Made by a program: the position numbers and the translations under genes
Assembly: GCA_048939245.1 (NCBI GenBank)
Contig: JBHLPR010000071.1
Span: 1-11,383, forward strand
Reading direction: 5' to 3'
Source of the DNA: Promethearchaeota archaeon
GTDB taxonomy: Archaea; Asgardarchaeota; Hermodarchaeia; Hermodarchaeales; Hermodarchaeaceae
DNA length: 11,383 nt
The notes under the pieces: model-generated
The model's input: only the letters and a program-made list of their open reading frames with translations
Databases searched by the model: none
Told to the model about the DNA's origin: nothing
Part shown: in pieces, positions 1,237-11,383 of the stretch
How positions within the stretch are numbered: position 1 is the first letter of the stretch
Layout of the letters: each line of letters opens with the position of its first letter

Positions 1237-2448
1237 TTATTCGATGGGTACCTTTTTTCCGTTGATATAAACCTCTGTAACTTCACTATAGAATTCGAAG
1301 GGATGGTCTGACCAGACGACAATATCGGCGTCTTTTCCAGGTTCAAAGGACCCAATTCGGTCTTGTAAGTTGAGGATTTCAGCTGGATTGATTGTGACGC
1401 ATTTCAAGGCGTCTTCCCGGCTCATGCCTGCCTTGATACAGTACATGGGCAGAAGAGGAAAGTAGAACATTGGGGTGAGTGAATCAGTTTGGAGTGCAAC
1501 CTTGACTCCAGCTTCGTTAAGAATAACAGCGGTTTTGAAGCCCTTTTCTTTGACTTCGGCTTTAGTCGACCAATAAATGGTGGGTCCGATAACAGCGGGG
1601 TATGGTTTCTTCGCAAGGAATTTTGAAATTTTGTGGCCTTCTGTGCAATGTATGAGGACCAAACGGAGATTGAATTCTTCAGCGATTCGAATAATGGTCG
1701 CTATGTCATCTGCACGATGACAGTGGGCATGGAGTGGAATTTCTCGCTTGAGAATCTTGGCAATGGTTTCTTGCCCGAGGTCTCGTTTGGGTGGTTTTGG
1801 CACTGCTTCTCCTTTCTCTTTAGCTTCTTTGGCTTTAGCACCAAAGGCTTTCCATTCGTCGAGATAATTCTGACCATCAGTGAAGGTTTTTCGAAGCAAA
1901 GCAGCAATGCCCATCCGGGTCATTGGCATTCGCTTGTTCTCATGTCCATGGATTCGTTTGGGATTTTCGCCCAAAGCGATTTTTAACCCTGACGGGGACA
2001 GGACAATCATCTTTTCTACAACGGTTTCTGGAACCGGTTTAAATGTAAAAGCTTCTCCTGAGACAACATTTCCTGATCCTGGGCCAGTGTTGACGGTGGT
2101 TACGCCACCTTTAAGAATCTCTTTGATGGATTCTTCAAATGGGTGAAAACCATCCTTTCCTCGCATTTCAGGGGTAATGGGCGTGGTCATTTCGTTTCCA
2201 TCCATCCCCATTGGACCAATGGTAGCGTCAAAAAGACCATGATGTGCATGGGCTTCCACAAATCCAGGAACGACATATTGCCCTTCCACATCAATGGTCT
2301 TAGTGTTACTTGGAATTGCAATAGCTTTGCCAACTTTGACAATCTTGCCTCGATCGAAGAGAATAGTCCCGTTTTCTATGAGTCCTTGTACAGGACAGAA
2401 AATTGTCGCATTGATTATAGCCCTCAACAAAGTCACCTGACTACTCAT
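1237..2448 (-). CDS. Metal-dependent amidohydrolase (imidazolonepropionase-like/urease superfamily TIM barrel)
   Basis: N-terminal beta-sandwich ..IDVEGQYVVPGFVEAHAHHG (HxH), GGVTTV, LKIALGENPK (candidate carboxylated Lys), HAHCHRADD, LIHCTEG, QTDS, TINPAEIL..DRIGSFEPGKDADIVVW. ATG at 2448 (MSSQV) preferred over TTG at 2457. Confidence 0.9.
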   Translation of the reverse strand: MSSQVTLLRAIINATIFCPVQGLIENGTILFDRGKIVKVGKAIAIPSNTKTIDVEGQYVVPGFVEAHAHHGLFDATIGPMGMDGNEMTTPITPEMRGKDGFHPFEESIKEILKGGVTTVNTGPGSGNVVSGEAFTFKPVPETVVEKMIVLSPSGLKIALGENPKRIHGHENKRMPMTRMGIAALLRKTFTDGQNYLDEWKAFGAKAKEAKEKGEAVPKPPKRDLGQETIAKILKREIPLHAHCHRADDIATIIRIAEEFNLRLVLIHCTEGHKISKFLAKKPYPAVIGPTIYWSTKAEVKEKGFKTAVILNEAGVKVALQTDSLTPMFYFPLLPMYCIKAGMSREDALKCVTINPAEILNLQDRIGSFEPGKDADIVVWSDHPFEFYSEVTEVYINGKKVPIE

Positions 2449-2491
2449 TATGAGCAAAAGCTACGAAAAGTTTTGGGTAATCAAAGAAATG

Positions 2492-3106
2492 CTAATCTTT
2501 CGGTTTCCGAAGCTTGGGGAAGATAGCGCCTGTTCGTTGTTGATATTTCCGGTATTTGTCACCAAACCGTTCAATCAGGTCTTTCTCCTCATAATGAATA
2601 ATAATGGGGCTGATAGTGAGAATCATAATAGTGGACCAAAGCACAAGAAAGAGGGAGTTGAGGAATAATGGGATGATAACAAACCAAGGCATTTCTCCAA
2701 CAGCTTGCGGATGACGAATGTAATTATAAATTCCGCCATACAGCTCAGTTGAGGGCGACGGCTCCATGGTTTCTTTTCCCGCATCCTTTATGCCTTTGAT
2801 CCAGATGGGAGTGAAAATACAGGCAAGAATAAGACCGATAAAAATACTAACCAGCCAATTGGGATTTACCAGCCATGCTAAGGCTTGAATCGGAAACCAC
2901 AACCATACAATCATATTAATGACTATGACAAACATCAGAATACCAGCGATGAATCGATCTCGCTTCGCGATTTTCCAGGCTAATTCACCAAGTTGTTTTG
3001 CACGAGTATAAGGTTGGACACTGCGGATGTAAAACCACCAGCACATTATTGTTATTATGTTTAAAACAAGAAAGTTAATCCAAGGAATAGCTAGTTGAAT
3101 TTGCAT
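2492..3106 (-). CDS. Isoprenylcysteine carboxyl methyltransferase (ICMT/Ste14/PEMT) family integral membrane methyltransferase
   Basis: Several TM helices and the family motifs GIYNYIRHPQAVG and EEKDLIERFGDKYRKYQQRTGAIFP. GGTGA SD upstream of the ATG. Confidence 0.88.
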   Translation of the reverse strand: MQIQLAIPWINFLVLNIITIMCWWFYIRSVQPYTRAKQLGELAWKIAKRDRFIAGILMFVIVINMIVWLWFPIQALAWLVNPNWLVSIFIGLILACIFTPIWIKGIKDAGKETMEPSPSTELYGGIYNYIRHPQAVGEMPWFVIIPLFLNSLFLVLWSTIMILTISPIIIHYEEKDLIERFGDKYRKYQQRTGAIFPKLRKPKD

Positions 3107-3145
3107 TCAGTCACCCGTAAAGGATTCTACGAGAAGATTGATTTT

Positions 3146-3940
3146 TCAACTATTTAAGCGGCTTCGGAGTTCGGGGATCAATGCTTTGATTGATTGTATA
3201 GCAGGAGAGTTGGGGGCGAAATCAATAGGTGCCGAACCTTCAATATTTGCCTGGCGAATGGCTTTATCAAATGGGATAATGGTTAACAACGGGATTCCCA
3301 TTTCTTTGAGCGTTTTTTCAATTACTGTTTGATCTACCTCATCCATCACCTTGTTTCCCACGGCAAAGACCGTATCCACGCCGATATCATGAGCTAGTTT
3401 CTTGATTCGAGCTACAGTATTGATAGATGTTTTGCCAGGTTCAACGACGATTATGAGCGCATCCATACCTTGAGAAGTTCCACGTCCCAAGTTTTCGATG
3501 CCCGCCTCAAGGTCCATAACAAAAGCTTCGTCGCTAGCTACAATCAAGTAGCGGATTAGCGCCTTAAGAAGTGCACCAGCTGGACACATACAACCTGACC
3601 CTCCAATAGTAACCGTTCCTGCTACTAAGAGTGTGGTATTATCAGGACCAGGAATCCCGAATTTATTAGCCAAGTCTGAAACGCGCGGGTTGAGTTTGAA
3701 CATACCACCATAGGTTTTCTTGTCCATTCCCGTTCGTTCTTCGACCAATTCATCATTTTCGGTGAGAGGAACGATTTTTTCTGCAACCTCTGGCGGTATT
3801 CCCAGGGTTGTCGCTAAGGATGGTGTTGGATCCGCATCGACTGCAAGTACTTGGATATTTTCTTGTCCGAGGAACCGTGCAAGGGTTCCAGCGACTAGAG
3901 TTTTTCCAACACCACCTTTTCCTGCAACTGCAATTTTCAT
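3146..3940 (-). CDS. cooC: CooC/AcsF-type nickel-insertion ATPase (CODH/ACS maturation factor, MinD/ParA class)
   Basis: MKIAVAGKGGVGKT deviant Walker A, AVDADP, Ni-binding GCMCP (CxC), MDLEAGIENLGRGT, VVEP, VGNKV. ATG at 3940 (alternative GTG at 3949). Confidence 0.92.
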   Translation of the reverse strand: MKIAVAGKGGVGKTLVAGTLARFLGQENIQVLAVDADPTPSLATTLGIPPEVAEKIVPLTENDELVEERTGMDKKTYGGMFKLNPRVSDLANKFGIPGPDNTTLLVAGTVTIGGSGCMCPAGALLKALIRYLIVASDEAFVMDLEAGIENLGRGTSQGMDALIIVVEPGKTSINTVARIKKLAHDIGVDTVFAVGNKVMDEVDQTVIEKTLKEMGIPLLTIIPFDKAIRQANIEGSAPIDFAPNSPAIQSIKALIPELRSRLNS

Positions 3941-4006
3941 AGTGGGCACCGTAATTCGTAGTAGCTTTATTGGTGCTTAAAGGCTTACCAATTATCCAAA
4001 TGGCAA

Positions 4007-5323
4007 CTAGCTAATTTGATTAAGTAGTTGGCGAAGTAGCTCTTCTTCGCTGTGAACCCCCTTGGGTGGTTGACTGAAGGGTTGTAACTGGATGGCTGTT
4101 CCATCCATTCGATAGACCGTCCCTTGAGTCTCAGCACCAGTAAGTGCAACGGGAAATACAATCGTAGATCGCTTTGAAGTAAGAGTTGGCTGTGTCGAAA
4201 AGGTGATTATCGGCAGATTGGATAGCACTTTTGCTACCGGTCCTGGAAGGAAGCTTAACCCATCCCAACTAGCGATGACAATACAGTCAAATTCACTATT
4301 AAGAATGCTCTCTTCGATTGAGTTGATTTGTTTTACTTTTTCTGAACTAAAGTCAACGGTAAATGGAAACTTAGTACTCTCTACAGTTGTTTTTACCGCA
4401 CCAATCGTGTTACAATGCCAAATCATTGGCAGAATCCAACATTTCTGGTTACCACGATTGAGAAGTTTCTTCAACTTGGCAAGTAAGGGTAAAGTTAGGT
4501 CAGAATGCATTGAGTGTATTAACCCGTTTCCATAAAATAAGGCTACATATTCTGCGTCACGAAGCTGTTTTGCAAAGCTCAAGAACTCAATGGAGGGAAC
4601 ACCACCCACTTTTTCTGGTAAGCGATCTTGGGTTCCTTCAAGTTCCTTAATCAAATATTGGAAAAATTCTACATCTCCAGTACCTGGAGATAAAATGAGT
4701 TGATGATTCGCTAATCGCATGGATTCGGTTTCTCGGATATCAATAACAGCCACAATTCGGCTTTCGCGACCTTCTGGGACATTCTTTCCTTTCGGAAACA
4801 CCGTGAAGCGACTGGCATGTCGGTGGTGGCTCTCTGCAGGATTAACACCCCAATAAACGATGTGATCTGAAAAATCGCGAACCTTATCCAGATTTAGGTA
4901 TCCTGCTTCGCCACCGTTAAGCTTTGTATCTAATAGGTGACCGTATTCAAAACTCGCGGTGCTATCAAAAACGCCCCTAGTCTGCTGAGCAAGTTCTAAA
5001 CCAATTTGGATGCTTTCTTGGGTACTATTGGACCAGCCTAAATAAAGTACTTTTTTAGCTTCCTGTAGAAGCATAACTGCTTGCTGCATTGCCACCTCCA
5101 TGGGAACGGTTTTCAGTTTTCCCGTCTTTGTCCTTTGAAGGGGTTTCTTTAACCGAGATTTATTAAAAATAGAAGCGCAATATTCATGACCGAGTCGACA
5201 AAGACCAAGTGATTGCAGCTTATTTTTTTTCATCGATACTGCTACGTCATCACAGACCACGGAGCAACCACAACATACCGTATCCTGCACGATGAATTCC
5301 CTTCCGCTAGTGGTGAGAAGCAA
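4007..5323 (-). CDS. fwdB: Formylmethanofuran dehydrogenase subunit B (FwdB/FmdB)-like protein with degenerate active site
   Basis: VCCGCSVVCDD...CRLG ([4Fe-4S] ligands), GWS, DSTAS, IVYWGVNPAESHHRHASR, VIDIRETES, GAETQGTVYRMDG; the 438-aa length fits FwdB. Canonical TASVCHG reads TASFEYG and MRGHYN reads MIWHCN. TTG start lies 2 bp after the upstream stop. Confidence 0.85.
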   Translation of the reverse strand: MLLTTSGREFIVQDTVCCGCSVVCDDVAVSMKKNKLQSLGLCRLGHEYCASIFNKSRLKKPLQRTKTGKLKTVPMEVAMQQAVMLLQEAKKVLYLGWSNSTQESIQIGLELAQQTRGVFDSTASFEYGHLLDTKLNGGEAGYLNLDKVRDFSDHIVYWGVNPAESHHRHASRFTVFPKGKNVPEGRESRIVAVIDIRETESMRLANHQLILSPGTGDVEFFQYLIKELEGTQDRLPEKVGGVPSIEFLSFAKQLRDAEYVALFYGNGLIHSMHSDLTLPLLAKLKKLLNRGNQKCWILPMIWHCNTIGAVKTTVESTKFPFTVDFSSEKVKQINSIEESILNSEFDCIVIASWDGLSFLPGPVAKVLSNLPIITFSTQPTLTSKRSTIVFPVALTGAETQGTVYRMDGTAIQLQPFSQPPKGVHSEEELLRQLLNQIS

Positions 5324-5325
5324 TA

Positions 5326-5793
5326 CTACCAGATTTCAATGGCGTTAACGTAACAGCCTTGTTCACAGACGCGACAATTCATTCGTTCGGGGGGGAAACG
5401 TCGACATTTTTCCAGGTTGATGATCTTGACGGTTCCATCCTCGACGCGGAAGACAGTTTCTGTCGTTCGGGCTGCCTTCCCTGAAGCGGTGTTAGGCTCA
5501 GCTGAGGCATCTACTGGACATACAACCACGCAGTTACCACAACCGGTACATATCGTCTCATCGAGTTTGATACCAGTCTCTTCTGTGTCTAGTAGCGGGC
5601 TTAAGATGTCATTTAGTTTTGAGAGTTGTTCCTTGTACTGTTCTTCTTCGAAAAGAGGTGTGCAGTCTTTAAGCTCAACTTCCCTGAGAGCAAGGCGTGT
5701 GGCGAAGGCCATACAGGTCATGCCACACTTTTTACAATTGGTCTGAGGTAAAAGCTTGTACAATTGCATTGGATTGACTTTCGCTTCTGCCAT
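5326..5793 (-). CDS. fwdG: FwdG-like ferredoxin: N-terminal FeS domain (CdhE/AcsC/RnfB N-terminal type) fused to a 2x[4Fe-4S] ferredoxin
   Basis: LYKLLPQTNCKKCGMTCMAFA..CTPL; CTGCGNCVVVCP; CRRFPPERMNCRVCEQGC; lies directly upstream of the fwdB-like gene, as in fwdGB(D) operons. Confidence 0.78.
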   Translation of the reverse strand: MAEAKVNPMQLYKLLPQTNCKKCGMTCMAFATRLALREVELKDCTPLFEEEQYKEQLSKLNDILSPLLDTEETGIKLDETICTGCGNCVVVCPVDASAEPNTASGKAARTTETVFRVEDGTVKIINLEKCRRFPPERMNCRVCEQGCYVNAIEIW

Positions 5794-5879
5794 CTACTCA
5801 CGACACAGCCTACAGTTACTGTTTTCAGATTTCTCCCTTTATCTCTTGGGTAACAACCAGAAGATTCGATGTACCAGTC

Positions 5880-5966
5880 GCCTTAATAATTAAAGCCCTA
5901 GATGGTAACGTAAAAAGTGTTAAAGCCTTTATTACCGCCTGAAACCATGGAGAACATAATAGGTGA
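5880..5966. promoter_or_regulatory. Divergent promoter region between fwdG and hdrA-mvhD
   Basis: 169-bp intergenic region (5794-5962). TTTAATTA on the minus strand (about 5894-5887); AAGCC-TTTATTA on the plus strand (5923-5934); TTAAAGCC at 5890 and 5920; SD-like AGGTGA at 5961-5966. Confidence 0.5.
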
Positions 5967-5968
5967 CC

Positions 5969-8413
5969 ATGGTGACGAAGTCCTCTAAAGCCAAAGAGAA
6001 AAAGACTAAACCAAAGTCATCTCGCCGGAAATCTTCTAAGAAGATGTCATCAAAAACTGCGCTTTTTCTTTGTCACTGTGGCTCAAATATCGCCAGTGTT
6101 ATTGATATTGAATCGCTGCTTAACCACTACAAGAAACAGCCAAATCTTGTAGTGGTTGACGACGCACACCTATGCATTGAACAAGGATTGAATCTGATAC
6201 GGGATACAATCAAGAATGAACAAGTGGATCATGTTGTGGTCGCCGCGTGTTCTCCAAAATTGCATGGTGAACTAATGGGCAAGACTGTTGAAGAAGCCGG
6301 ATTAAATCATGGTTATCTTTACATCGCAAATATTCGTGAACAATGTAGCTGGGTCCACTGGGATAATCCCGAAGCCGCAACCGCTAAAGCCCGCCTAATG
6401 ATTGATGCAGCAATTCAAATGGCGCAGCATGCTCTGCCAATCAATTCAGTCAGTGTACCAATCATTAAACGCGTCCTTGTTTTAGGAGCAGGTCCGGCTG
6501 GCATCACAGCCGCCCTCCAACTTGCCAACGCTGGATATGAAATTATACTCGTAGAAAAAAGCGGCTTTTTAGGTGGCCACATGGCTAAATGGGACAAACT
6601 CTTTCCTAGCCTTGATTGCAGTCTTTGCATTCTCGGACCTCTCATGACCCAGGTGAATACTCATCCCAAAATCAAAGTACTTACCCTCAGTGAACTCACA
6701 GATGTGCATGGAACACCAGGGTCCTATCAGGTTAGCATTCATCAAAAACCCCGATACGTAGATATTGAAACCTGTAATGGTTGCAATAAGTGTCTGGAAA
6801 TTTGTCCTATTGAAGAACCCAGTGAGTACAATTATGGACTTGGGACTCGGCAAGCCATTATTCGACCCTATCCAAATACAGTTCCCTTAGCTCCATACAT
6901 TGACATGGACGCCTGTGTGGGCTGTCAATCTTGTGTGGGCATTTGTGAGAAAGAATCTATCCAGTTTGAAGACACTGACCGAGACCATACATTCAAGGTT
7001 GGCGCTATCATCGTCGCCACTGGGTTCGAACCTTATAATCCTCAACCTCTCAGCGAATATGGGTATGAACGCTATCCCGATGTCATCATTGCACCAGAAC
7101 TTGAAAGATTACTTGACCCCGCTGGACCCTCCCACGGTCTCATCGTACGTCCTTCAACGGGAGAACTCCCAAAACGAGTTGCCTTCGTGCAATGTGTTGG
7201 AAGTCGAGATATCCGCATAAACCGTCCCTACTGCAGCCGAATATGCTGTACTTATGCAGTCAAAGAAGCGATCCAACTACGTCTGGCTCAACCTGACACA
7301 GAAGTATTCATTTTCTACACTGACATGCGCACCTTTGGCAAAGGCTTCGAGGAGATGTATGAACGAGCAGCTCGTGAACATGGGATCACATTTATTCGTG
7401 GACGCGTTGCTGAAATCGAAGAAGACCCAGCAACAAAAAGACTTCTGTTACGTGCAGAAGATACAGAACTCTGTGAGCCAATTGAATTTCCAGCAGACTT
7501 GGTTGTATTAAGTGTCGGTGTTGATCCCCCTCCATCAAACCCCACCCTTGCCACCTTACTAAACATTCCATTGGATGAAAACAACTTCTTCCTCGAAAAG
7601 CACCCTAAACTCAATCCAACCGGAACCTATTCTGCAGGTATCTTCCTTGCAGGGACTTCTCAAGGTCCCAAGGACATCGCGGATACCGTCGCCCATGCAG
7701 GTCTAGCTGCAGCTCAGGTATCTTCCCTGTTGAATCGACGTAAAATTGCCCTCGAGGTGTATGCACCTGTTGTCGATGAAACGCTGTGTGAAAATTGTCT
7801 ATTGTGCGAGCAAACCTGCGATGCAAACGCCATATCTTTCGAAGACTCAAAAGTACCCCAAATAGACGAAATCGCTTGTACAGGTTGTGGGGCGTGTGTC
7901 GCGTCATGCCCAACTGGTGCATTAGATCTACCTGGTTTTACTCGCCAACAGCTCTTATCCGCTGTCCATTCGGCATGCCAGGCGAATCCCCTTCGCCCAG
8001 TAATTATCGGATTTTTATGCAACTGGTGTGCCTATGAAGCAGCAGATAGAGCAGGAGTTTATCGTCTCCGTTATCCTCCTCATATGATACCAATCCGCGT
8101 TCCATGTACTAGTCGACTAGATCCTTTACTTATTCTTGAAGCCTTTAGTCAGGGCGCTGATGGTGTCGTAATCCTTGGCTGTCATGAAACCGATTGTCAT
8201 TATCGCACAGGCGTGAATAAAGCAAAAGATCGCCTAAACAAAATGCAGCCCCTGCTAGATGAAATGGGAATTAATCCTGAACGAATTTTCTTTGGAAGCA
8301 CTTCAGCATCTGAGGGTGCTCGATTAGCTGAACTTGTTGAAGACTTTGTCAAAACAATTGTTGCGATGGGACCACTCGGTTCCGAGTTAGCCGTCACTAC
8401 AAAGGCTCGCTAA
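5969..8413 (+). CDS. hdrA: Heterodisulfide reductase subunit A fused to a C-terminal MvhD ([2Fe-2S]) domain
   Basis: FLCHCGSNIA, AACSP, NIREQCSWVH, VLVLGAGPAGITAA (FAD), FPSLDCSLC, CNGCNKCLEICP and CVGCQSCVGIC, ELERLL, QCVGSRD..YCSRICC..VK, GIFLAG..QGPKDI, CENCLLCEQTC and CTGCGACVASCP; MvhD part (about 7994-8410) GFLCNWCAY..AD, RVPCTSR, GADGV..GCHETDCHY. Start uncertain: GTG 5963, ATG 5969 or ATG 6044. Confidence 0.95.
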   Translation: MVTKSSKAKEKKTKPKSSRRKSSKKMSSKTALFLCHCGSNIASVIDIESLLNHYKKQPNLVVVDDAHLCIEQGLNLIRDTIKNEQVDHVVVAACSPKLHGELMGKTVEEAGLNHGYLYIANIREQCSWVHWDNPEAATAKARLMIDAAIQMAQHALPINSVSVPIIKRVLVLGAGPAGITAALQLANAGYEIILVEKSGFLGGHMAKWDKLFPSLDCSLCILGPLMTQVNTHPKIKVLTLSELTDVHGTPGSYQVSIHQKPRYVDIETCNGCNKCLEICPIEEPSEYNYGLGTRQAIIRPYPNTVPLAPYIDMDACVGCQSCVGICEKESIQFEDTDRDHTFKVGAIIVATGFEPYNPQPLSEYGYERYPDVIIAPELERLLDPAGPSHGLIVRPSTGELPKRVAFVQCVGSRDIRINRPYCSRICCTYAVKEAIQLRLAQPDTEVFIFYTDMRTFGKGFEEMYERAAREHGITFIRGRVAEIEEDPATKRLLLRAEDTELCEPIEFPADLVVLSVGVDPPPSNPTLATLLNIPLDENNFFLEKHPKLNPTGTYSAGIFLAGTSQGPKDIADTVAHAGLAAAQVSSLLNRRKIALEVYAPVVDETLCENCLLCEQTCDANAISFEDSKVPQIDEIACTGCGACVASCPTGALDLPGFTRQQLLSAVHSACQANPLRPVIIGFLCNWCAYEAADRAGVYRLRYPPHMIPIRVPCTSRLDPLLILEAFSQGADGVVILGCHETDCHYRTGVNKAKDRLNKMQPLLDEMGINPERIFFGSTSASEGARLAELVEDFVKTIVAMGPLGSELAVTTKAR

Positions 8414-8481: not shown

Positions 8482-10161
8482 TTGGAATGTTTGAGGAGAA
8501 TTCATAAAACGGTTGCTATTTTTATATTAGCCTCGAGCATATTCACCGGATTTTTTCCACTGTGGTCTTCACTATCAACAAAAGCTTATCGTCCAGAGGC
8601 TAGTTATGTAAGCACTGATTCTATCTGGAGCATAACCCATGGATCAGGAACGGGGCCCAATTGCTTCTATTCTATTGCAGCCTGTCAAGCAGGCGGGTTC
8701 ATTGCGACTGGGGTTATCCAAGATCCAGATCAAGGAATCGTATCGATTCCATTAGTGCGCATAGCAGAGGATGGGAGTATCTTTTGGTCGCGTATGTTAC
8801 AGCCCTTCAACTATCAAGTAGGAAGAGAAGTGATTGAATGCCAATCCGGCGGTTATGCCATCATTGGAGAAACAATGGAAAACAACCATGATGCAATCCT
8901 AATCCGCACGGATGACTCTGGCAACGTCTCCTGGTGCAGAACTTATGGTCGGTCTGCTTTTTTTGATACAGCGACATGTCTCGTTGAATGTCAGTCGGGA
9001 GGATTTGCCTTTGCTGGATATGGAAGAGATGGAACCCTCTCAAGATCAGATTTTTGGTTGGTGCGAACCGATGATCAAGGCACCTTACTATGGAACCGAT
9101 ATTACGGAAGAGACTACGATGATTTCTGTTATTCACTCATAGAAACTGATACTAGAAATTTCGTTTTAGCTGGTTCGACAAAAGATGTTGGAATGCAAAG
9201 CGAGGATGGATGGATACTTCAAACGACTTCTCTTGGGAGTGAGAATTGGAATGTTACCTGGGGGGGAGTTTATTCTCAAATCTGTCGGGATCTCGTTCAG
9301 ATAAATAGTGGAAACCTGGTTACTATTGGAAGCACTGATGGTGTTACCAATCAGAACTCTGACGGATTTCTTCTTTCATTAGATATTATGGGGAATATTT
9401 TATGGAGTACAACATTCGGTGGAACATCTGAAGAACTACCTTATGCCATAACTGAATGTCAAAATAGCACTTATGCTGTGACAGGTCGAATCAGCGAATT
9501 GGATGGAGACCAATACTCAAGAAATCTCTGGTTAGTCCGATTGAATTACAATGGAGAACAACTTTGGACTAAAAGCTATGGTGGGCATGCGGCTGATGAG
9601 GGGTGGTCAATCCTTCTAACTCTTAATGGTGATTTTGTAATTGTTGGAATGAGTGAAAGTTTAGTTGAAGGTTACGGAGCTTGGGGACTACGAGTGCCTG
9701 ATACGCCTCCTGATATCACTACTCGCATATTTGGCCCTCCGAATCTATATCTGATTGGACTTGGAACCGGGTTATCCTTACTGATGGTTTTAGGATCTTA
9801 TTTACTTCTACGACAAAGCCGAAAGGAAATCGCACTTCCTTGGTCAAAACCTTCACGTCGTGCCATCTTTAAGTCATATCTAAGGCCACGTTATATCGAC
9901 GAGTTATCTCCTATTCTTGCTGGGTCGTCTCGTTGCTGGAATTGTGGGGAAGTCAGCGCTCGAGCTGATGTGCGCTGTTCACACTGTTCTGCTTATCGTC
10001 ATCGCTGTCTCTTTTGTGATAAGGGTATTCATGAGGATGAACTGGTGATTTTTTGTCCTAGCTGCAAAGGTCTTGCGCATCAGCTTCATATGGAAGAATG
10101 GCTCCGAAAACGAGATTTTTGCCCCCAGTGTTTTTCAAAATTAGTGACACAACGGGACTAA
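8482..10161 (+). CDS. Type-I membrane protein: signal peptide, 7-bladed beta-propeller ectodomain, TM helix, Zn-ribbon, RING-variant domain (candidate transmembrane E3 ligase)
   Basis: RRIHK plus hydrophobic N-terminus; seven ~50-aa repeats ([YW]S[IL]xEC..GG[FY]xxxG ... [FW]L[VI]RTDxxGxxxWxxxYG); TM at L422-L443 (9745-9810) followed by RQSRK; C485xxC-x10-C499xxC; C509xxC-x12-CxxC-x4-HxxH-x3-W-x6-CPxC550. Confidence 0.85.
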   Translation: MECLRRIHKTVAIFILASSIFTGFFPLWSSLSTKAYRPEASYVSTDSIWSITHGSGTGPNCFYSIAACQAGGFIATGVIQDPDQGIVSIPLVRIAEDGSIFWSRMLQPFNYQVGREVIECQSGGYAIIGETMENNHDAILIRTDDSGNVSWCRTYGRSAFFDTATCLVECQSGGFAFAGYGRDGTLSRSDFWLVRTDDQGTLLWNRYYGRDYDDFCYSLIETDTRNFVLAGSTKDVGMQSEDGWILQTTSLGSENWNVTWGGVYSQICRDLVQINSGNLVTIGSTDGVTNQNSDGFLLSLDIMGNILWSTTFGGTSEELPYAITECQNSTYAVTGRISELDGDQYSRNLWLVRLNYNGEQLWTKSYGGHAADEGWSILLTLNGDFVIVGMSESLVEGYGAWGLRVPDTPPDITTRIFGPPNLYLIGLGTGLSLLMVLGSYLLLRQSRKEIALPWSKPSRRAIFKSYLRPRYIDELSPILAGSSRCWNCGEVSARADVRCSHCSAYRHRCLFCDKGIHEDELVIFCPSCKGLAHQLHMEEWLRKRDFCPQCFSKLVTQRD

Positions 10162-10243
10162 TTAATAAAACTACAAAAGGTAACGATTTTTAATCCACTA
10201 CTGTGACAATTCTATTAAGAATTGTATGTGAGGTCAACCAGGA

Positions 10244-11383
10244 GTGCCCAAAACCAACATTTTCTTTTTAGTGTTAATCTTTTCTACACTTGTTTTTCCA
10301 ATTCTTTCTTGGTACTGTTCTCCTGCTTCCGCCCTTACCACCAATGGTGGTATTGTGCCAAATAGTTCCTCACTACGTGAAACTGACCAACAATGGAACC
10401 AATTCTTCGATGCAAATCAATCCAGACAAGCGTTCTCACTCGCTGAAAGTCATCTCGGTGGCTTCATTATGACGGGTTACGTTATCAAATCGGCATCTGG
10501 TCTCGGTGATAAGACTATATGGCTGGCAAAAATCGATGCGGGGGGCAATATTGAATGGGAACGTCGGTTTTTAGAGGGCTCTTACGGTTGGGGGGAATCG
10601 GTTATCGAATGTGAGAATGATGATTTCGTGCTGACAGGAGTAATTGATGATGAATTTGCAACTATATTCGTTTTACGCACTGATTCACAAGGGAATCCTC
10701 GATGGATACGGATTTTTAATTTCACCCAACATCAAGAAGCATACGACATCTTAGAATTACCTTCAGGCAATTTAGTGGTTTGTGGCTGGGCTTGGACCTA
10801 TCGACCAACCAACCCAATTGATGGATTGGTAATTTGTCTTGATGACTCTGGAGAACTAATTTGGCATCGAAGGTATGGTGGACTATTAGAAGAACAATTT
10901 TATTCTCTGACTTATACGCATGAAGATGAATTGGTTCTCACAGGAATGACTGAAAGTCATGGAAATCCCTCAGGCGAGGTATGGCTAGTTAAGACAGATT
11001 TACAGGGTAATATGGTTTGGAATACATCTTTTAGTGGCATAGCCACAAGCCGTGGCTATGGTATTGCATGCGATTCGTCTAAAGAATTAACTATAGCTGG
11101 CTTCATCCGAGATGAGAGCAATGACAGGCTTAATGCATTCATTATTCATACTAGCGCAAATGGAACTCAGATCTGGAACCAAACCTTGGGTGAAGAATTA
11201 GATACGATTGCCTATTCTATTGTCTCTTGCTCTAATGGAGGTTATGCAATCGCCGGTAAGATATCCCAGTCTGCAAATAGTTACTGGTTTGATATGCTCG
11301 TTATCCGAGTCAGTGATTCTGGGGATATTCTTTGGCAAAAAGCCTATGGAGATGAGGGGAACGATGTCGGTCTTTCAATTATT
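10244..11383 (+). CDS. Paralogous signal-peptide beta-propeller protein, 3'-truncated by the window edge (absent from the ORF track)
   Basis: Manual translation from GTG 10244 (GTGAGG SD at about 10228-10233) is open for 380 codons to the window end: MPKTNIFFLVLIFSTLVFPILSWYCSPASA...IWLAKIDAGGNIEWERRF...ESVIECENDDFVLTG...LRTDSQGNPRW...VWLVKTDLQGNMVWN...YSIVSCSNGGYAIAG...IRVSDSGDILWQKAYGDEGNDVGLSII. Same repeat type as 8482..10161; six blades plus the start of a seventh. Confidence 0.88.
   Translation, partial: MPKTNIFFLVLIFSTLVFPILSWYCSPASALTTNGGIVPNSSSLRETDQQWNQFFDANQSRQAFSLAESHLGGFIMTGYVIKSASGLGDKTIWLAKIDAGGNIEWERRFLEGSYGWGESVIECENDDFVLTGVIDDEFATIFVLRTDSQGNPRWIRIFNFTQHQEAYDILELPSGNLVVCGWAWTYRPTNPIDGLVICLDDSGELIWHRRYGGLLEEQFYSLTYTHEDELVLTGMTESHGNPSGEVWLVKTDLQGNMVWNTSFSGIATSRGYGIACDSSKELTIAGFIRDESNDRLNAFIIHTSANGTQIWNQTLGEELDTIAYSIVSCSNGGYAIAGKISQSANSYWFDMLVIRVSDSGDILWQKAYGDEGNDVGLSII

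What the first reader, a model, noticed from the sequence alone, without database searches (positions are those of the whole stretch)
4007..5323. FwdB pseudo-enzyme or neofunctionalised variant: W/Mo-ligating Cys-His and catalytic Arg lost, [4Fe-4S] ligands kept
Known: FwdB/FmdB uses TASV-C(or Sec)-H-G (Cys118/His119 in Methanothermobacter wolfeii) and M-R-G-H-Y-N (Arg288/His290) for CO2/formate conversion. Seen: a gapless match reads TASF-E126-Y127-G (codons at 4948-4943) and M-I301-W-H303-C-N (I301-H303 at 4423-4415); the YNPGE-type segment also appears absent. The ORF is intact and full length, and the four N-terminal cluster Cys are conserved. Known: FhcB of methylotrophs is a pterin-less FwdB homolog, but it also lacks the Fe-S cluster. 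Inference: this is either an intermediate, non-catalytic electron-relay, scaffold or sensor subunit, or an enzyme with a new Glu-ligated metal centre and a different substrate.
Basis: partly seen in the sequence, partly recalled or inferred. Interest (0 to 1): 0.72.

Follow-up and report, generated by a model that had tools for sequence, protein, structure and literature searches.

The report
Catalytically stripped FwdB paralog, HdrA module
This Asgard archaeon has a normal CO2-reducing FwdB plus a conserved second copy that keeps its iron-sulfur cluster but has lost the tungsten/molybdenum ligand and catalytic residues; the copy is encoded with an HdrA flavoprotein and iron-sulfur "wire" proteins, so it most likely relays electrons or acts as a scaffold.

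Summary
The gene (4007-5290, minus strand; real start GTG 5290) aligns end to end with solved FwdB/FmdB. It reads TASF-E-Y-G for TASV-C-H-G and M-I-W-H-C-N for M-R-G-H-Y-N, lacks the RYNPGE segment and keeps all four cluster cysteines. Independent metagenome contigs carry the same codons.

It is not decay. Glu-Tyr is invariant in 54 orthologs, dN/dS is about 0.1, and the gene is in 17 of 18 genomes of one Asgard (Hermod-type) family. Each genome with enough assembled also has a canonical FwdB; this one has FwdA, B, C and D on contig C16.

The gene belongs to a conserved module: FeS/ferredoxin, FwdB*, a CooC paralog, divergent HdrA2-MvhD, polyferredoxin and a second FwdD-like gene. In the tree the Arg was lost first. 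The Cys was lost later, in the ancestor of this clade and a sister clade whose ligand site varies freely. The CooC paralog appears at that same point. FwdD* has lost the motifs invariant in canonical FwdD, and FwdB*/FwdD* evolve 2-4 times faster than their partners.

Best reading (about 0.6): a non-catalytic Fe-S relay or scaffold of an HdrA-centred complex. A Glu-ligated new enzyme is not excluded but unsupported. Earlier reports of this scan found the same thing on other genomes.

The parts
4007..5290 (-). FwdB* gene, 427 aa: FwdB paralog with the Fe-S motif kept and the W/Mo site stripped
   Evidence: TIGR03129 scores 310.1 bits, below the cut-off of 327.8. Full-length alignment to 5T5I_B, 7BKB_H and 8RJA_B. 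AF2 model pLDDT 95.6; TM 0.91-0.94 to FwdB/FmdB. Start GTG 5290.
5198..5275 (-). Codons of the four [4Fe-4S] ligand cysteines (C6, C9, C13, C31 in true numbering)
   Evidence: Invariant in all 80 aligned family members.
4943..4948 (-). GAA TAC = Glu115-Tyr116, in place of the W/Mo ligand Cys and the adjacent His
   Evidence: Both residues are invariant in 54 orthologs. Identical in independent contigs.
4415..4423 (-). ATT TGG CAT = Ile290-Trp291-His292, in place of Arg-Gly-His
   Evidence: These positions vary within the clade: I/V/F, A/T/W/S/E, Y/H/L.
4310..4342 (-). Segment that replaces the canonical RYNPGE loop
   Evidence: 3-residue gap and no NPGE in the alignment. The canonical-invariant Gly is lost in the clade and the neighbouring Pro is not conserved.
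5326..5793 (-). FeS/ferredoxin protein, 155 aa: a CdhE/RnfB-type N-terminal 4-Cys domain plus a 2x[4Fe-4S] ferredoxin domain, in the position of FwdG
   Evidence: PF04060 and Fer4 families; sequence. It lies 35 nt upstream of FwdB* and is next to FwdB* in every Arg-less locus examined. omega 0.04.
3146..3949 (-). CooC-family ATPase paralog, with P-loop GKGGVGKT and the CXC motif GGSGCMCP
   Evidence: PDB 3KJE CooC1, E 5e-42, with the CXC aligned. Found next to FwdB* in 7/7 E-Y loci and 10/10 sister-clade loci with enough flank, and in 0/5 Cys-keeping loci.
5963..8413 (+). HdrA2-type flavoprotein with a fused MvhD domain, transcribed divergently
   Evidence: NF040770 HdrA2 scores 916 bits over its full length; PF02662 at residues 681-803. 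Conserved beside FwdB* in all Arg-less lineages.
5794..5962 (.). 169-bp divergent intergenic region between the FeS/ferredoxin operon and hdrA2
   Evidence: ORF map.
1237..3106 (-). ICMT/PEMT-like methyltransferase (2492-3106) and a 406-aa amidohydrolase (1237-2457), co-directional with 34-39 nt gaps; neighbours specific to this family
   Evidence: Syntenic in the same family only. The amidohydrolase is not FwdA-like beyond its N-terminal 60 residues.

Best explanation
FwdB* is the catalytically disabled descendant of the CO2-reducing subunit of formylmethanofuran dehydrogenase. It keeps the FwdB fold and the N-terminal [4Fe-4S] cluster but no longer has a protein ligand for W/Mo or the His/Arg pair that handles CO2/formate. 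It is encoded with a Fwd-derived set of partners: an FwdG-position FeS/ferredoxin, an FwdF-like polyferredoxin and a degenerate FwdD*. A divergently transcribed HdrA2-MvhD flavoprotein completes the set. Inferred mechanism: these proteins form one soluble complex. HdrA2's flavin splits or merges electron pairs, and the polyferredoxin and the FeS/ferredoxin carry the low-potential electrons. The FwdB*/FwdD* pair is retained as an Fe-S-bearing structural or docking unit, or as the end of the wire, much as NuoG is in complex I. It is not a CO2/formate catalyst; real formyl-MFR synthesis is done by the canonical FwdABCD on contig C16. Shown: the substitutions, their conservation, purifying selection, the gene module, the order of losses in the tree, and the relaxed constraint on B* and D*. 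Inferred: physical complex formation, the direction of electron flow, and loss of the metallopterin. Whether a pterin dinucleotide is still bound is unresolved. The role of the dedicated CooC paralog, which appeared when the Cys was lost, is also unexplained.
For: Substitutions at the ligand and catalytic positions. Glu-Tyr is invariant in 54 orthologs, while the former Arg-Gly-His positions vary. Purifying selection: dN/dS is 0.10-0.12 in three unsaturated ortholog pairs. The gene is present in 14/14 genomes of the genus and 17/18 of the family, and in 0 of 381 other Asgard genomes at E<=1e-90. Canonical FwdB (518.7 bits), FwdD, FwdA (690.7 bits) and FwdC are in the same genome. Conserved module of FeS/Fer4, FwdB*, HdrA2-MvhD, polyferredoxin and FwdD*: in this family, in three other Asgard families and in the metagenomic sister clade. 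Canonical CH/RGH genes instead sit with FwdD, FwdA and FwdC. Tree with the active-site columns removed: Arg-less sequences form one side of a branch (98). The E-Y clade (100) is sister (99) to a Cys-less clade (100), nested in a Cys-keeping grade. The sister clade in the same module has GL/GM/GP/GQ/GS/SA/AL/GV at the ligand site and WHE/WFS/APE/FVE/FVQ/SHD/TID at the Arg site, i.e. the old active site is unconstrained. FwdD* keeps the FwdD fold (TM 0.78-0.80). However, it has LxLAR(A/S)L(D/E)xD for LITGRTxKQG, and a 6-residue deletion removes the GMPxxKG loop. Its Pfam match stops at model position 83 of 110. For the G001/G008 pair, omega is 0.11 for FwdB* and 0.17 for FwdD*, against 0.04 FeS/Fer4, 0.05 HdrA2, 0.06 CooC, 0.07 polyferredoxin and 0.04-0.06 canonical FwdB. 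Amino-acid identity to this genome's proteins tells the same story: FwdB* 54-71% within the genus against 89-93% for canonical FwdB. No new shared Cys/His motif is found in the two Cys-less clades. Precedents: Fhc lost its metallopterin together with the D subunit and loop remodelling (PMC11656701). Hdr-Fmd supercomplexes are wired through FmdF (PMC13580544). A second FwdBD+FwdF+FwdG set lies next to HdrABC in Methanonezhaarchaeum (PMC12700198).
Against: FwdB* still carries 40 of the 66 canonical-invariant positions. These include WGxNP, DxR, GxG, two Asp and the YRMD motif, which belong to the dinucleotide-binding folds, and they survive in the sister clade too. That could mean a pterin dinucleotide is still bound. 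Glu-Tyr is absolutely invariant, which a mere filler need not be. A dedicated D subunit is retained. The model fits holo-FwdB (rmsd about 2.2 A) much better than pterin-less FhcB (TM 0.66, rmsd 4.2), although the input alignment contained canonical sequences. The CooC paralog, a metal-insertion type ATPase that is tightly linked and strongly constrained, hints at a metal site that this model does not explain. No protein, metal, pterin, expression or complex data exist. Model coordinates could not be read, so the pocket was not inspected.
Confidence: 0.6

Rival explanations
1. FwdB*/FwdD* still binds bis-pyranopterin guanine dinucleotide, with W/Mo ligated by Glu115 or with no protein ligand as in arsenite oxidase. 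It would be the catalytic end of the HdrA2 wire and reduce or oxidise a substrate other than CO2/formate.
For: Glu-Tyr is invariant in 54 sequences. The dinucleotide-fold motifs of B* are retained. A dedicated FwdD* is retained with the FwdD fold. The fold is almost identical to holo-FwdB. The deeper Arg-less relatives in the same module keep Cys(-His) and are probably real W/Mo enzymes with another substrate. From general knowledge, Asp (NarG), Ser (DMSO reductase) and no ligand (arsenite oxidase) are all known, so a carboxylate ligand is chemically possible.
Against: The sister clade in the same module has no conserved residue at the ligand or Arg positions. FwdD* has lost both canonical-invariant motifs, including a 6-residue deletion. 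B* and D* are the least constrained proteins of the module. Second-shell positions (former Arg, Gly, His, the NPGE loop) vary within the E-Y clade. I know of no Glu-ligated Mo/W-bisPGD enzyme.
Confidence: 0.2
2. The loss of Cys and the gain of a dedicated CooC paralog mark a change of cofactor. On this view CooC* installs Ni or another metal somewhere in the FwdB*/FeS-ferredoxin unit, or acts as an ATP-driven gate, giving a new catalytic or ATP-coupled redox module.
For: The CooC paralog has the P-loop and the CXC metal motif and matches CooC1 at E 5e-42. It lies directly downstream of FwdB* in 7/7 E-Y loci and 10/10 sister-clade loci, and in 0/5 Cys-keeping loci. It differs from the second CooC/MinD-like genes found elsewhere, which are 28-30% identical. 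Nearly all its population variants are at third codon positions, and its omega is 0.06.
Against: The two Cys-less clades are sisters, so the coincidence is a single evolutionary event. The two clades share no new Cys/His-rich motif in FwdB*. CooC* may instead serve CODH/ACS, whose genes lie 1-8 kb away in several lineages.
Confidence: 0.1
3. The gene is a decaying pseudogene or an assembly/strain artefact, or it is still an ordinary FwdB.
For: It scores just below the TIGR03129 cut-off and evolves faster than the canonical copy.
Against: The frame is intact in all 18 orthologs found. dN/dS is 0.10-0.12. Glu-Tyr is invariant. Independent metagenomes give the same codons. Synteny is conserved. 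Ordinary Fwd chemistry needs the Cys/Sec ligand, which is absent, and a canonical set exists on C16.
Confidence: 0.03

Closest known systems
FwdB/FmdB, the CO2-reducing subunit of formylmethanofuran dehydrogenase (PDB 5T5I_B, 8RJA_B, 7BKB_H)
   Same: Full-length homology at 27-29% identity; the same three-domain fold (TM 0.91-0.94); the N-terminal 4-Cys [4Fe-4S] motif; a separate D subunit; partners in the FwdG and FwdF positions.
   Different: There is no Cys/Sec ligand, and His119, Arg288 and the NPGE loop are gone. There is no fwdA or fwdC partner. The score is below the family cut-off. It is linked to HdrA2 and a CooC paralog. It evolves with 2-3 times higher omega.
'Fwd-Hdr' gene cluster of Methanonezhaarchaeum strain YNP3N (Kohtz et al. 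2025, PMC12700198), and the Methanosarcina fwdG2B2D2 cluster with hdrA-polyferredoxin (PMC2838876)
   Same: A second FwdB/FwdD set without FwdA/FwdC, encoded with FwdF-like polyferredoxin, FwdG and HdrA. The organism also has a separate complete Fwd.
   Different: Those clusters are proposed to oxidise formate and are taken to have working FwdBD. Here the ligand and catalytic residues are gone, FwdD* is degenerate, HdrB/C are not in the locus, and a CooC paralog is added. I did not inspect the active sites of those published proteins.
Hdr-Fmd/Fwd electron-bifurcating supercomplexes of methanogens (7BKB; PMC13580544)
   Same: The wiring logic: HdrA flavin to polyferredoxin (FmdF) to FmdB's cluster.
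   Different: Those complexes end in an active W/Mo site and include HdrBC plus a hydrogenase or Fdh as donor. Physical association is not shown here.
Cofactor-less members of the Mo/W-bisPGD fold: NuoG/Nqo3 of complex I and FhcB of the Fhc complex (6S6Y)
   Same: A molybdopterin-oxidoreductase fold kept as a structural part after catalysis was lost. NuoG also keeps an Fe-S cluster in that part. NuoG and FhcB are among the structural hits.
   Different: FhcB lacks the Fe-S domain and the D subunit and fits poorly (TM 0.66). NuoG is fused into a larger subunit. Loss of the pterin is inferred here, not shown.

Membership tests
FwdB/FmdB (TIGR03129, formylmethanofuran dehydrogenase subunit B) | Score at or above the curated family cut-off (327.8 bits) | tested here: not met
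   310.1 bits and 309.9 bits. The canonical copy on C16 scores 518.7.
FwdB/FmdB (TIGR03129, formylmethanofuran dehydrogenase subunit B) | Cys or Sec ligand to W/Mo, with the adjacent His (Cys118/His119 of M. wolfeii) | tested here: not met
   Glu-Tyr (GAA TAC) at the aligned positions; no TGA.
FwdB/FmdB (TIGR03129, formylmethanofuran dehydrogenase subunit B) | Active-site Arg288 and His290 (the RGH motif) | tested here: not met
   Ile-Trp-His here. Arg is absent from the whole clade, and the His position is Tyr in 72% of orthologs.
FwdB/FmdB (TIGR03129, formylmethanofuran dehydrogenase subunit B) | N-terminal CxxCxxxC...C [4Fe-4S] motif and the three-domain fold | tested here: met
   The four Cys are invariant. 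TM 0.91-0.94 and rmsd 1.9-2.4 A to FwdB/FmdB chains.
FwdB/FmdB (TIGR03129, formylmethanofuran dehydrogenase subunit B) | Encoded with fwdA, fwdC and a canonical fwdD | tested here: not met
   Canonical genes sit 0.8-0.9 kb from FwdD and about 1.4 kb from FwdA. This clade has no FwdA/FwdC nearby and a degenerate FwdD* 5-9 kb away.
FwdB/FmdB (TIGR03129, formylmethanofuran dehydrogenase subunit B) | Binds W/Mo-bis-pyranopterin guanine dinucleotide and interconverts CO2 and formate | not testable with these tools
   Needs metal and pterin analysis and an enzyme assay.
FhcB-type pterin-less homolog (Fhc complex, 6S6Y) | Lacks the N-terminal Fe-S domain and the D subunit; partners are FhcA/C/D | tested here: not met
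   The Fe-S motif is kept, an own FwdD* is present, and there are no FwdA/FwdC homologs in the locus. TM is only 0.66 to 6S6Y_F.
Hdr-linked Fwd module ('Fwd-Hdr', PMC12700198) | A second FwdB+FwdD encoded with FwdF-like polyferredoxin, an FwdG-like ferredoxin and HdrA | tested here: met
   The window holds FeS/Fer4, FwdB* and HdrA2. The polyferredoxin and FwdD* are on C41, and lie on the same contig as FwdB* in relatives.
Hdr-linked Fwd module ('Fwd-Hdr', PMC12700198) | HdrB/HdrC in the same cluster and a catalytically competent FwdBD | tested here: not met
   There is no CCG-domain gene in the window; the HdrB-like genes lie on other contigs. The catalytic residues are absent.

The most novel reading that the evidence does not exclude
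The Cys-less FwdB*/FwdD* pair is not dead. Together with its dedicated CooC paralog it would form a new redox module at the low-potential end of an HdrA2 bifurcating complex. That module could be a pterin site with a carboxylate (Glu115) or no protein ligand, a CooC-matured metal site, or a docking unit that feeds bifurcated electrons directly to CODH/ACS.
Probability: 0.15. Interest if true: 0.75.

Novelty: new variant of a known kind. Interest (0 to 1): 0.5.

Why it matters
Databases call this protein 'formylmethanofuran dehydrogenase subunit B', so metabolic reconstructions of Hermod-type and related Asgard archaea may count a CO2-reducing enzyme that cannot work as one. It is also a clean natural series showing how a W/Mo enzyme was taken apart while its iron-sulfur wiring stayed attached to an HdrA flavoprotein. 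The series runs from canonical, to Arg-less, to Cys-less with a free-running site or with a fixed Glu-Tyr. If the complex is real, it is an undescribed HdrA-centred electron-bifurcation unit in the archaeal group closest to eukaryotes. The unexplained CooC paralog gives a concrete handle for testing what its low-potential branch serves.

Tried and rejected
Contexts were taken instead from the genome search, the fetch from genomes and the search for related loci.
2. No RNA holder was listed for the stretch, so nothing can be said about expression.
3. Coordinates of the AF2 models are not available to scripts. The cofactor pocket, the environment of Glu115 and cavity volumes could not be examined.
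4. A sequence-level control with pterin-less FhcB failed. P0134 (360 aa) turned out to be a fragment of a canonical FmdB, and 6S6Y_B never ranks among the alignments shown. Only the fold-level comparison is available.
5. A search for a new metal site, meaning Cys/His shared by both Cys-less clades but absent elsewhere, found only Asn195-His196.
6. The 406-aa amidohydrolase was tested as an FwdA substitute. It shares only the N-terminal ~60 residues with FwdA models and is unrelated to the FwdA-like gene in locus L024. It is a neighbour in this family only.
7. Linkage to CODH/ACS: CdhE is 1-8 kb away in the sister clade and in some Cys-keeping lineages. It is not within about 9 kb in the seven loci of this family, and in this genome it lies on contig C7.
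8. Literature searches found no paper that describes Cys-less FwdB paralogs.
9. A contig joint skipping 145 bases (4548-4694) in runs X4 and X5 has only 29 bases on its shorter side and low depth. I treat it as unreliable.
Full report
**What is in the window.** The window is contig C89 of a 2.5-Mb, 88%-complete metagenome-assembled genome. Its closest protein relatives are labelled Hermodarchaeota/Promethearchaeota, i.e. Asgard archaea. On the minus strand, five co-directional genes are separated by 34-57 nt. They are an FeS/ferredoxin protein (5326-5793), the FwdB-like gene, a CooC-type ATPase (3146-3949), an ICMT/PEMT-like methyltransferase (2492-3106) and a 406-aa amidohydrolase (1237-2457). 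On the plus strand, across a 169-bp gap, lies an HdrA2-type flavoprotein with a fused MvhD domain (5963-8413). Two propeller proteins follow it.

**Check of the observation.** The frame 4007-5323 is open. It aligns from residue 12 to 437 with solved FwdB/FmdB chains (5T5I_B E 1.4e-53; 9SFI_Q, 7BKB_H, 8RJA_B). The alignment puts TASFEYG on TASVCHG and LPMIWHCN on IPMRGHYN. It leaves a 3-residue gap where the canonical proteins have RYNPGE.

- The codons are GAA TAC (4948-4943) and ATT TGG CAT (4423-4415), with no in-frame TGA.
- The four cluster cysteines are present and invariant across the family.
- The real start is almost certainly the GTG at 5290. It is preceded by GGAAGGG, and orthologs begin MQDTVCC.
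- Contigs from independent metagenome runs (mangrove and sediment studies) cover both sites without a difference.

**Not decay, and not the only FwdB.** The same genome encodes a canonical FwdB (518.7 bits against 309.9 for this gene). It also encodes FwdD, FwdA (690.7 bits) and FwdC, all on contig C16.

- The paralog is found in 14 of 14 genomes of the genus and in 17 of 18 of the family; the 18th holds a fragment. It is found in none of 381 other Asgard genomes at E<=1e-90. A canonical copy was found as well in 16 of the 18 relatives.
- In 54 orthologs down to 49% identity, Glu and Tyr are invariant. The former Arg-Gly-His positions vary: I/V/F, A/T/W/S/E, Y/H/L.
- Nei-Gojobori dN/dS for three unsaturated ortholog pairs is 0.10-0.12.

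So the gene is under purifying selection.

**The gene module.** tblastn of the window's proteins against 20-kb contexts from relatives shows one conserved set: amidohydrolase, methyltransferase, CooC*, FwdB* and FeS/Fer4, facing HdrA2.

- A second, divergent FwdD-like gene (125 aa; 54 bits to the FwdD model against 106 for the canonical one) lies on contig C41 next to a polyferredoxin that runs off the contig end.
- In relatives this pair lies on the same contig as FwdB*, 5-9 kb away, beyond HdrA2 and the propeller genes. C41 therefore most likely continues the window.
- The core FwdD*, polyferredoxin, HdrA2-MvhD, facing FeS/Fer4 and FwdB*, recurs in three other Asgard families. It also recurs in a metagenomic sister clade.
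- Across 94 loci, canonical (Cys-His, Arg-Gly-His) genes sit with FwdD at 0.8-0.9 kb, FwdA at about 1.4 kb, and FwdC. All Arg-less genes examined sit next to FeS/Fer4, and next to HdrA2, polyferredoxin and FwdD* wherever the contig reaches that far.

**Order of events.** An IQ-TREE tree built without the active-site columns gives this picture (FastTree agrees).

- All Arg-less sequences fall on one side of a branch (SH-aLRT 98).
- The Glu-Tyr clade (100) is sister (99) to a second Cys-less clade (100).
- Both are nested among Arg-less sequences that still have Cys-His or Cys-Gln.

The Arg was therefore lost first, in an already HdrA-linked paralog. The Cys was lost later, once. In the sister clade the ligand position reads GL, GM, GP, GQ, GS, SA, AL or GV. 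Its former Arg-Gly-His reads WHE, WFS, APE, FVE, FVQ, SHD or TID. There, in the same module, the old active site is under no visible constraint.

**The CooC paralog.** The ATPase downstream of FwdB* is a true CooC homolog (3KJE CooC1, E 5e-42) with the P-loop and the CXC motif.

- It lies next to FwdB* in 7 of 7 Glu-Tyr loci and in 10 of 10 sister-clade loci that have enough flank. It is next to none of 5 Cys-keeping Arg-less loci.
- It is distinct from other CooC/MinD-like genes, which are 28-30% identical.
- It is strongly constrained: omega is 0.06, and nearly all population variants fall at third codon positions.

Because the two Cys-less clades are sisters, this is one evolutionary coincidence, not two. 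I cannot explain it.

**Is the pterin still there?**

Arguments for loss:
- FwdD* keeps the FwdD fold (TM 0.78-0.80).
- But where canonical FwdD has the invariant LITGRTxKQG, it has LxLAR(A/S)L(D/E)xD. The GMPxxKG loop is removed by a 6-residue deletion.
- FwdB* has lost 26 of 66 canonical-invariant positions. Among them are the ligand, His, Arg-Gly-His and the NPGE glycine.
- FwdB* (omega 0.11) and FwdD* (0.17) are the least constrained members of the module. The others are FeS/Fer4 0.04, HdrA2 0.05, CooC* 0.06 and polyferredoxin 0.07; canonical FwdB is 0.04-0.06.
- The two Cys-less clades share no new Cys/His motif.

Arguments for retention:
- The remaining 40 invariant positions include WGxNP, DxR, GxG, two Asp and YRMD, and they persist in both Cys-less clades.
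- Glu-Tyr is invariant, and a D subunit is kept.
- The AF2 model (pLDDT 95.6) superposes on holo-FwdB at TM 0.91-0.94. It fits FhcB only at TM 0.66.

A review states that Fhc lost its metallopterin through loss of the D subunit and loop remodelling (PMC11656701). The case here is less extreme. I could not read the model coordinates, so the pocket itself was not examined.

**Most likely mechanism.** I commit to the following, at about 0.6. The proteins form an HdrA2-centred soluble complex of the kind seen in methanogen Hdr-Fmd supercomplexes, where FmdF wires HdrA to FmdB (PMC13580544). FwdB*/FwdD* is retained in it as an Fe-S-bearing structural or docking unit, not as a CO2/formate catalyst.

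- Shown: the substitutions, conservation, selection, synteny, the order of losses and the relative constraint.
- Inferred: complex formation, electron flow and cofactor loss.
- Rivals: a pterin enzyme with a carboxylate ligand or no ligand and a new substrate (0.2); a CooC-dependent new metal site or ATP-coupled module (0.1); decay, artefact or an ordinary FwdB (0.03).

**Comparison with what is known.** The closest described thing is the 'Fwd-Hdr' cluster of Methanonezhaarchaeum YNP3N. There a second FwdBD with FwdF and FwdG lies next to HdrABC and is proposed to oxidise formate (PMC12700198). Methanosarcina has an uncharacterised fwdG2B2D2 cluster and an hdrA-polyferredoxin pair (PMC2838876). 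HdrA2B2C2 is a characterised bifurcating enzyme (PMC5296606). The present module differs in four ways: the ligand and catalytic residues are gone, FwdD* is degenerate, HdrB/C are absent from the locus, and a CooC paralog is added. In function it resembles the cofactor-less molybdopterin-fold parts of NuoG and FhcB. I found no paper describing Cys-less FwdB paralogs.

**Relation to earlier reports of this scan.** Earlier reports describe the same dead FwdB paralog and HdrA module on at least seven other genomes, with the same reading. They usually place it beside the CODH/ACS genes. That holds for the sister clade and for some Cys-keeping lineages, where CdhE is 1-8 kb away. It does not hold for the seven loci of this family, and in this genome CdhE is on contig C7. 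New in this report:
- the order of losses;
- the unconstrained site in the sister clade;
- the coincidence of CooC gain with Cys loss;
- the comparison of omega values;
- confirmation of the codons in independent metagenomes.

**Verdict.** This is a new variant of a known kind, of moderate interest. It is a mis-annotated, conserved pseudo-enzyme inside an undescribed HdrA module, and two questions remain open: whether the pterin is bound, and what the CooC paralog does.

Noticed in passing
window 8482-11383: Two propeller (SBBP-repeat) genes lie between hdrA2 and the polyferredoxin/FwdD* pair in this family only. In other Asgard families and in the sister clade the polyferredoxin follows hdrA2 directly. 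They look like an insertion that split the module.
   Followed up: partly
window end (11383) and G000:C41:1-1658: Contig C41 begins inside the polyferredoxin, followed by FwdD* on the minus strand. Relatives have the order propeller gene, polyferredoxin, FwdD* on one contig, so C41 probably continues C89 after a gap that I estimate at a few hundred bases.
   Followed up: partly
L024 (G025:C84) 3127-5077 and 10658-11620; L052, L027: Cys-keeping, Arg-less modules carry a divergent FwdA-like amidohydrolase: 516 aa and TIGR03121 184.5 bits (cut-off 392.75) in L024, and tblastn 385 and 226 bits in L052 and L027. In L024 a LipS1-type lipoyl synthase follows FwdB*. The ancestral HdrA-linked paralog may have been a two-site enzyme like Fwd.
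   Followed up: partly
window 2492-3106 and relatives L015, L018: The ICMT/PEMT-like membrane methyltransferase is present in one to three tandem copies in relatives, 40-77% identical to the window's copy. Other Asgard families have an unrelated UbiE/CpaM-like methyltransferase beside the module.
   Followed up: no
window 5641: Contigs from runs X4 and X5 lack 3 bases in the FeS/ferredoxin gene. This is an in-frame one-codon length variant in related strains.
   Followed up: no
G000 whole genome: The cdhA model TIGR00314 found nothing at E<=1e-10, although CdhE (545 bits) is present on C7. The genome is 88% complete, so the alpha subunit may be unassembled or of another type.
   Followed up: no
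G000:C82:34585-35331: A second CooC/MinD-like ATPase, 30% identical to the module's CooC*, lies among unrelated genes and not in an ACDS operon.
   Followed up: partly
protein family at large (P0079-P0226): Many FwdB-like proteins from metagenomes keep the 4-Cys motif but have other residues at the ligand and Arg positions: YH, TH, SL, GY and many bacterial-looking forms. Stripped or altered FwdB sites seem widespread well beyond Asgard archaea.
   Followed up: no
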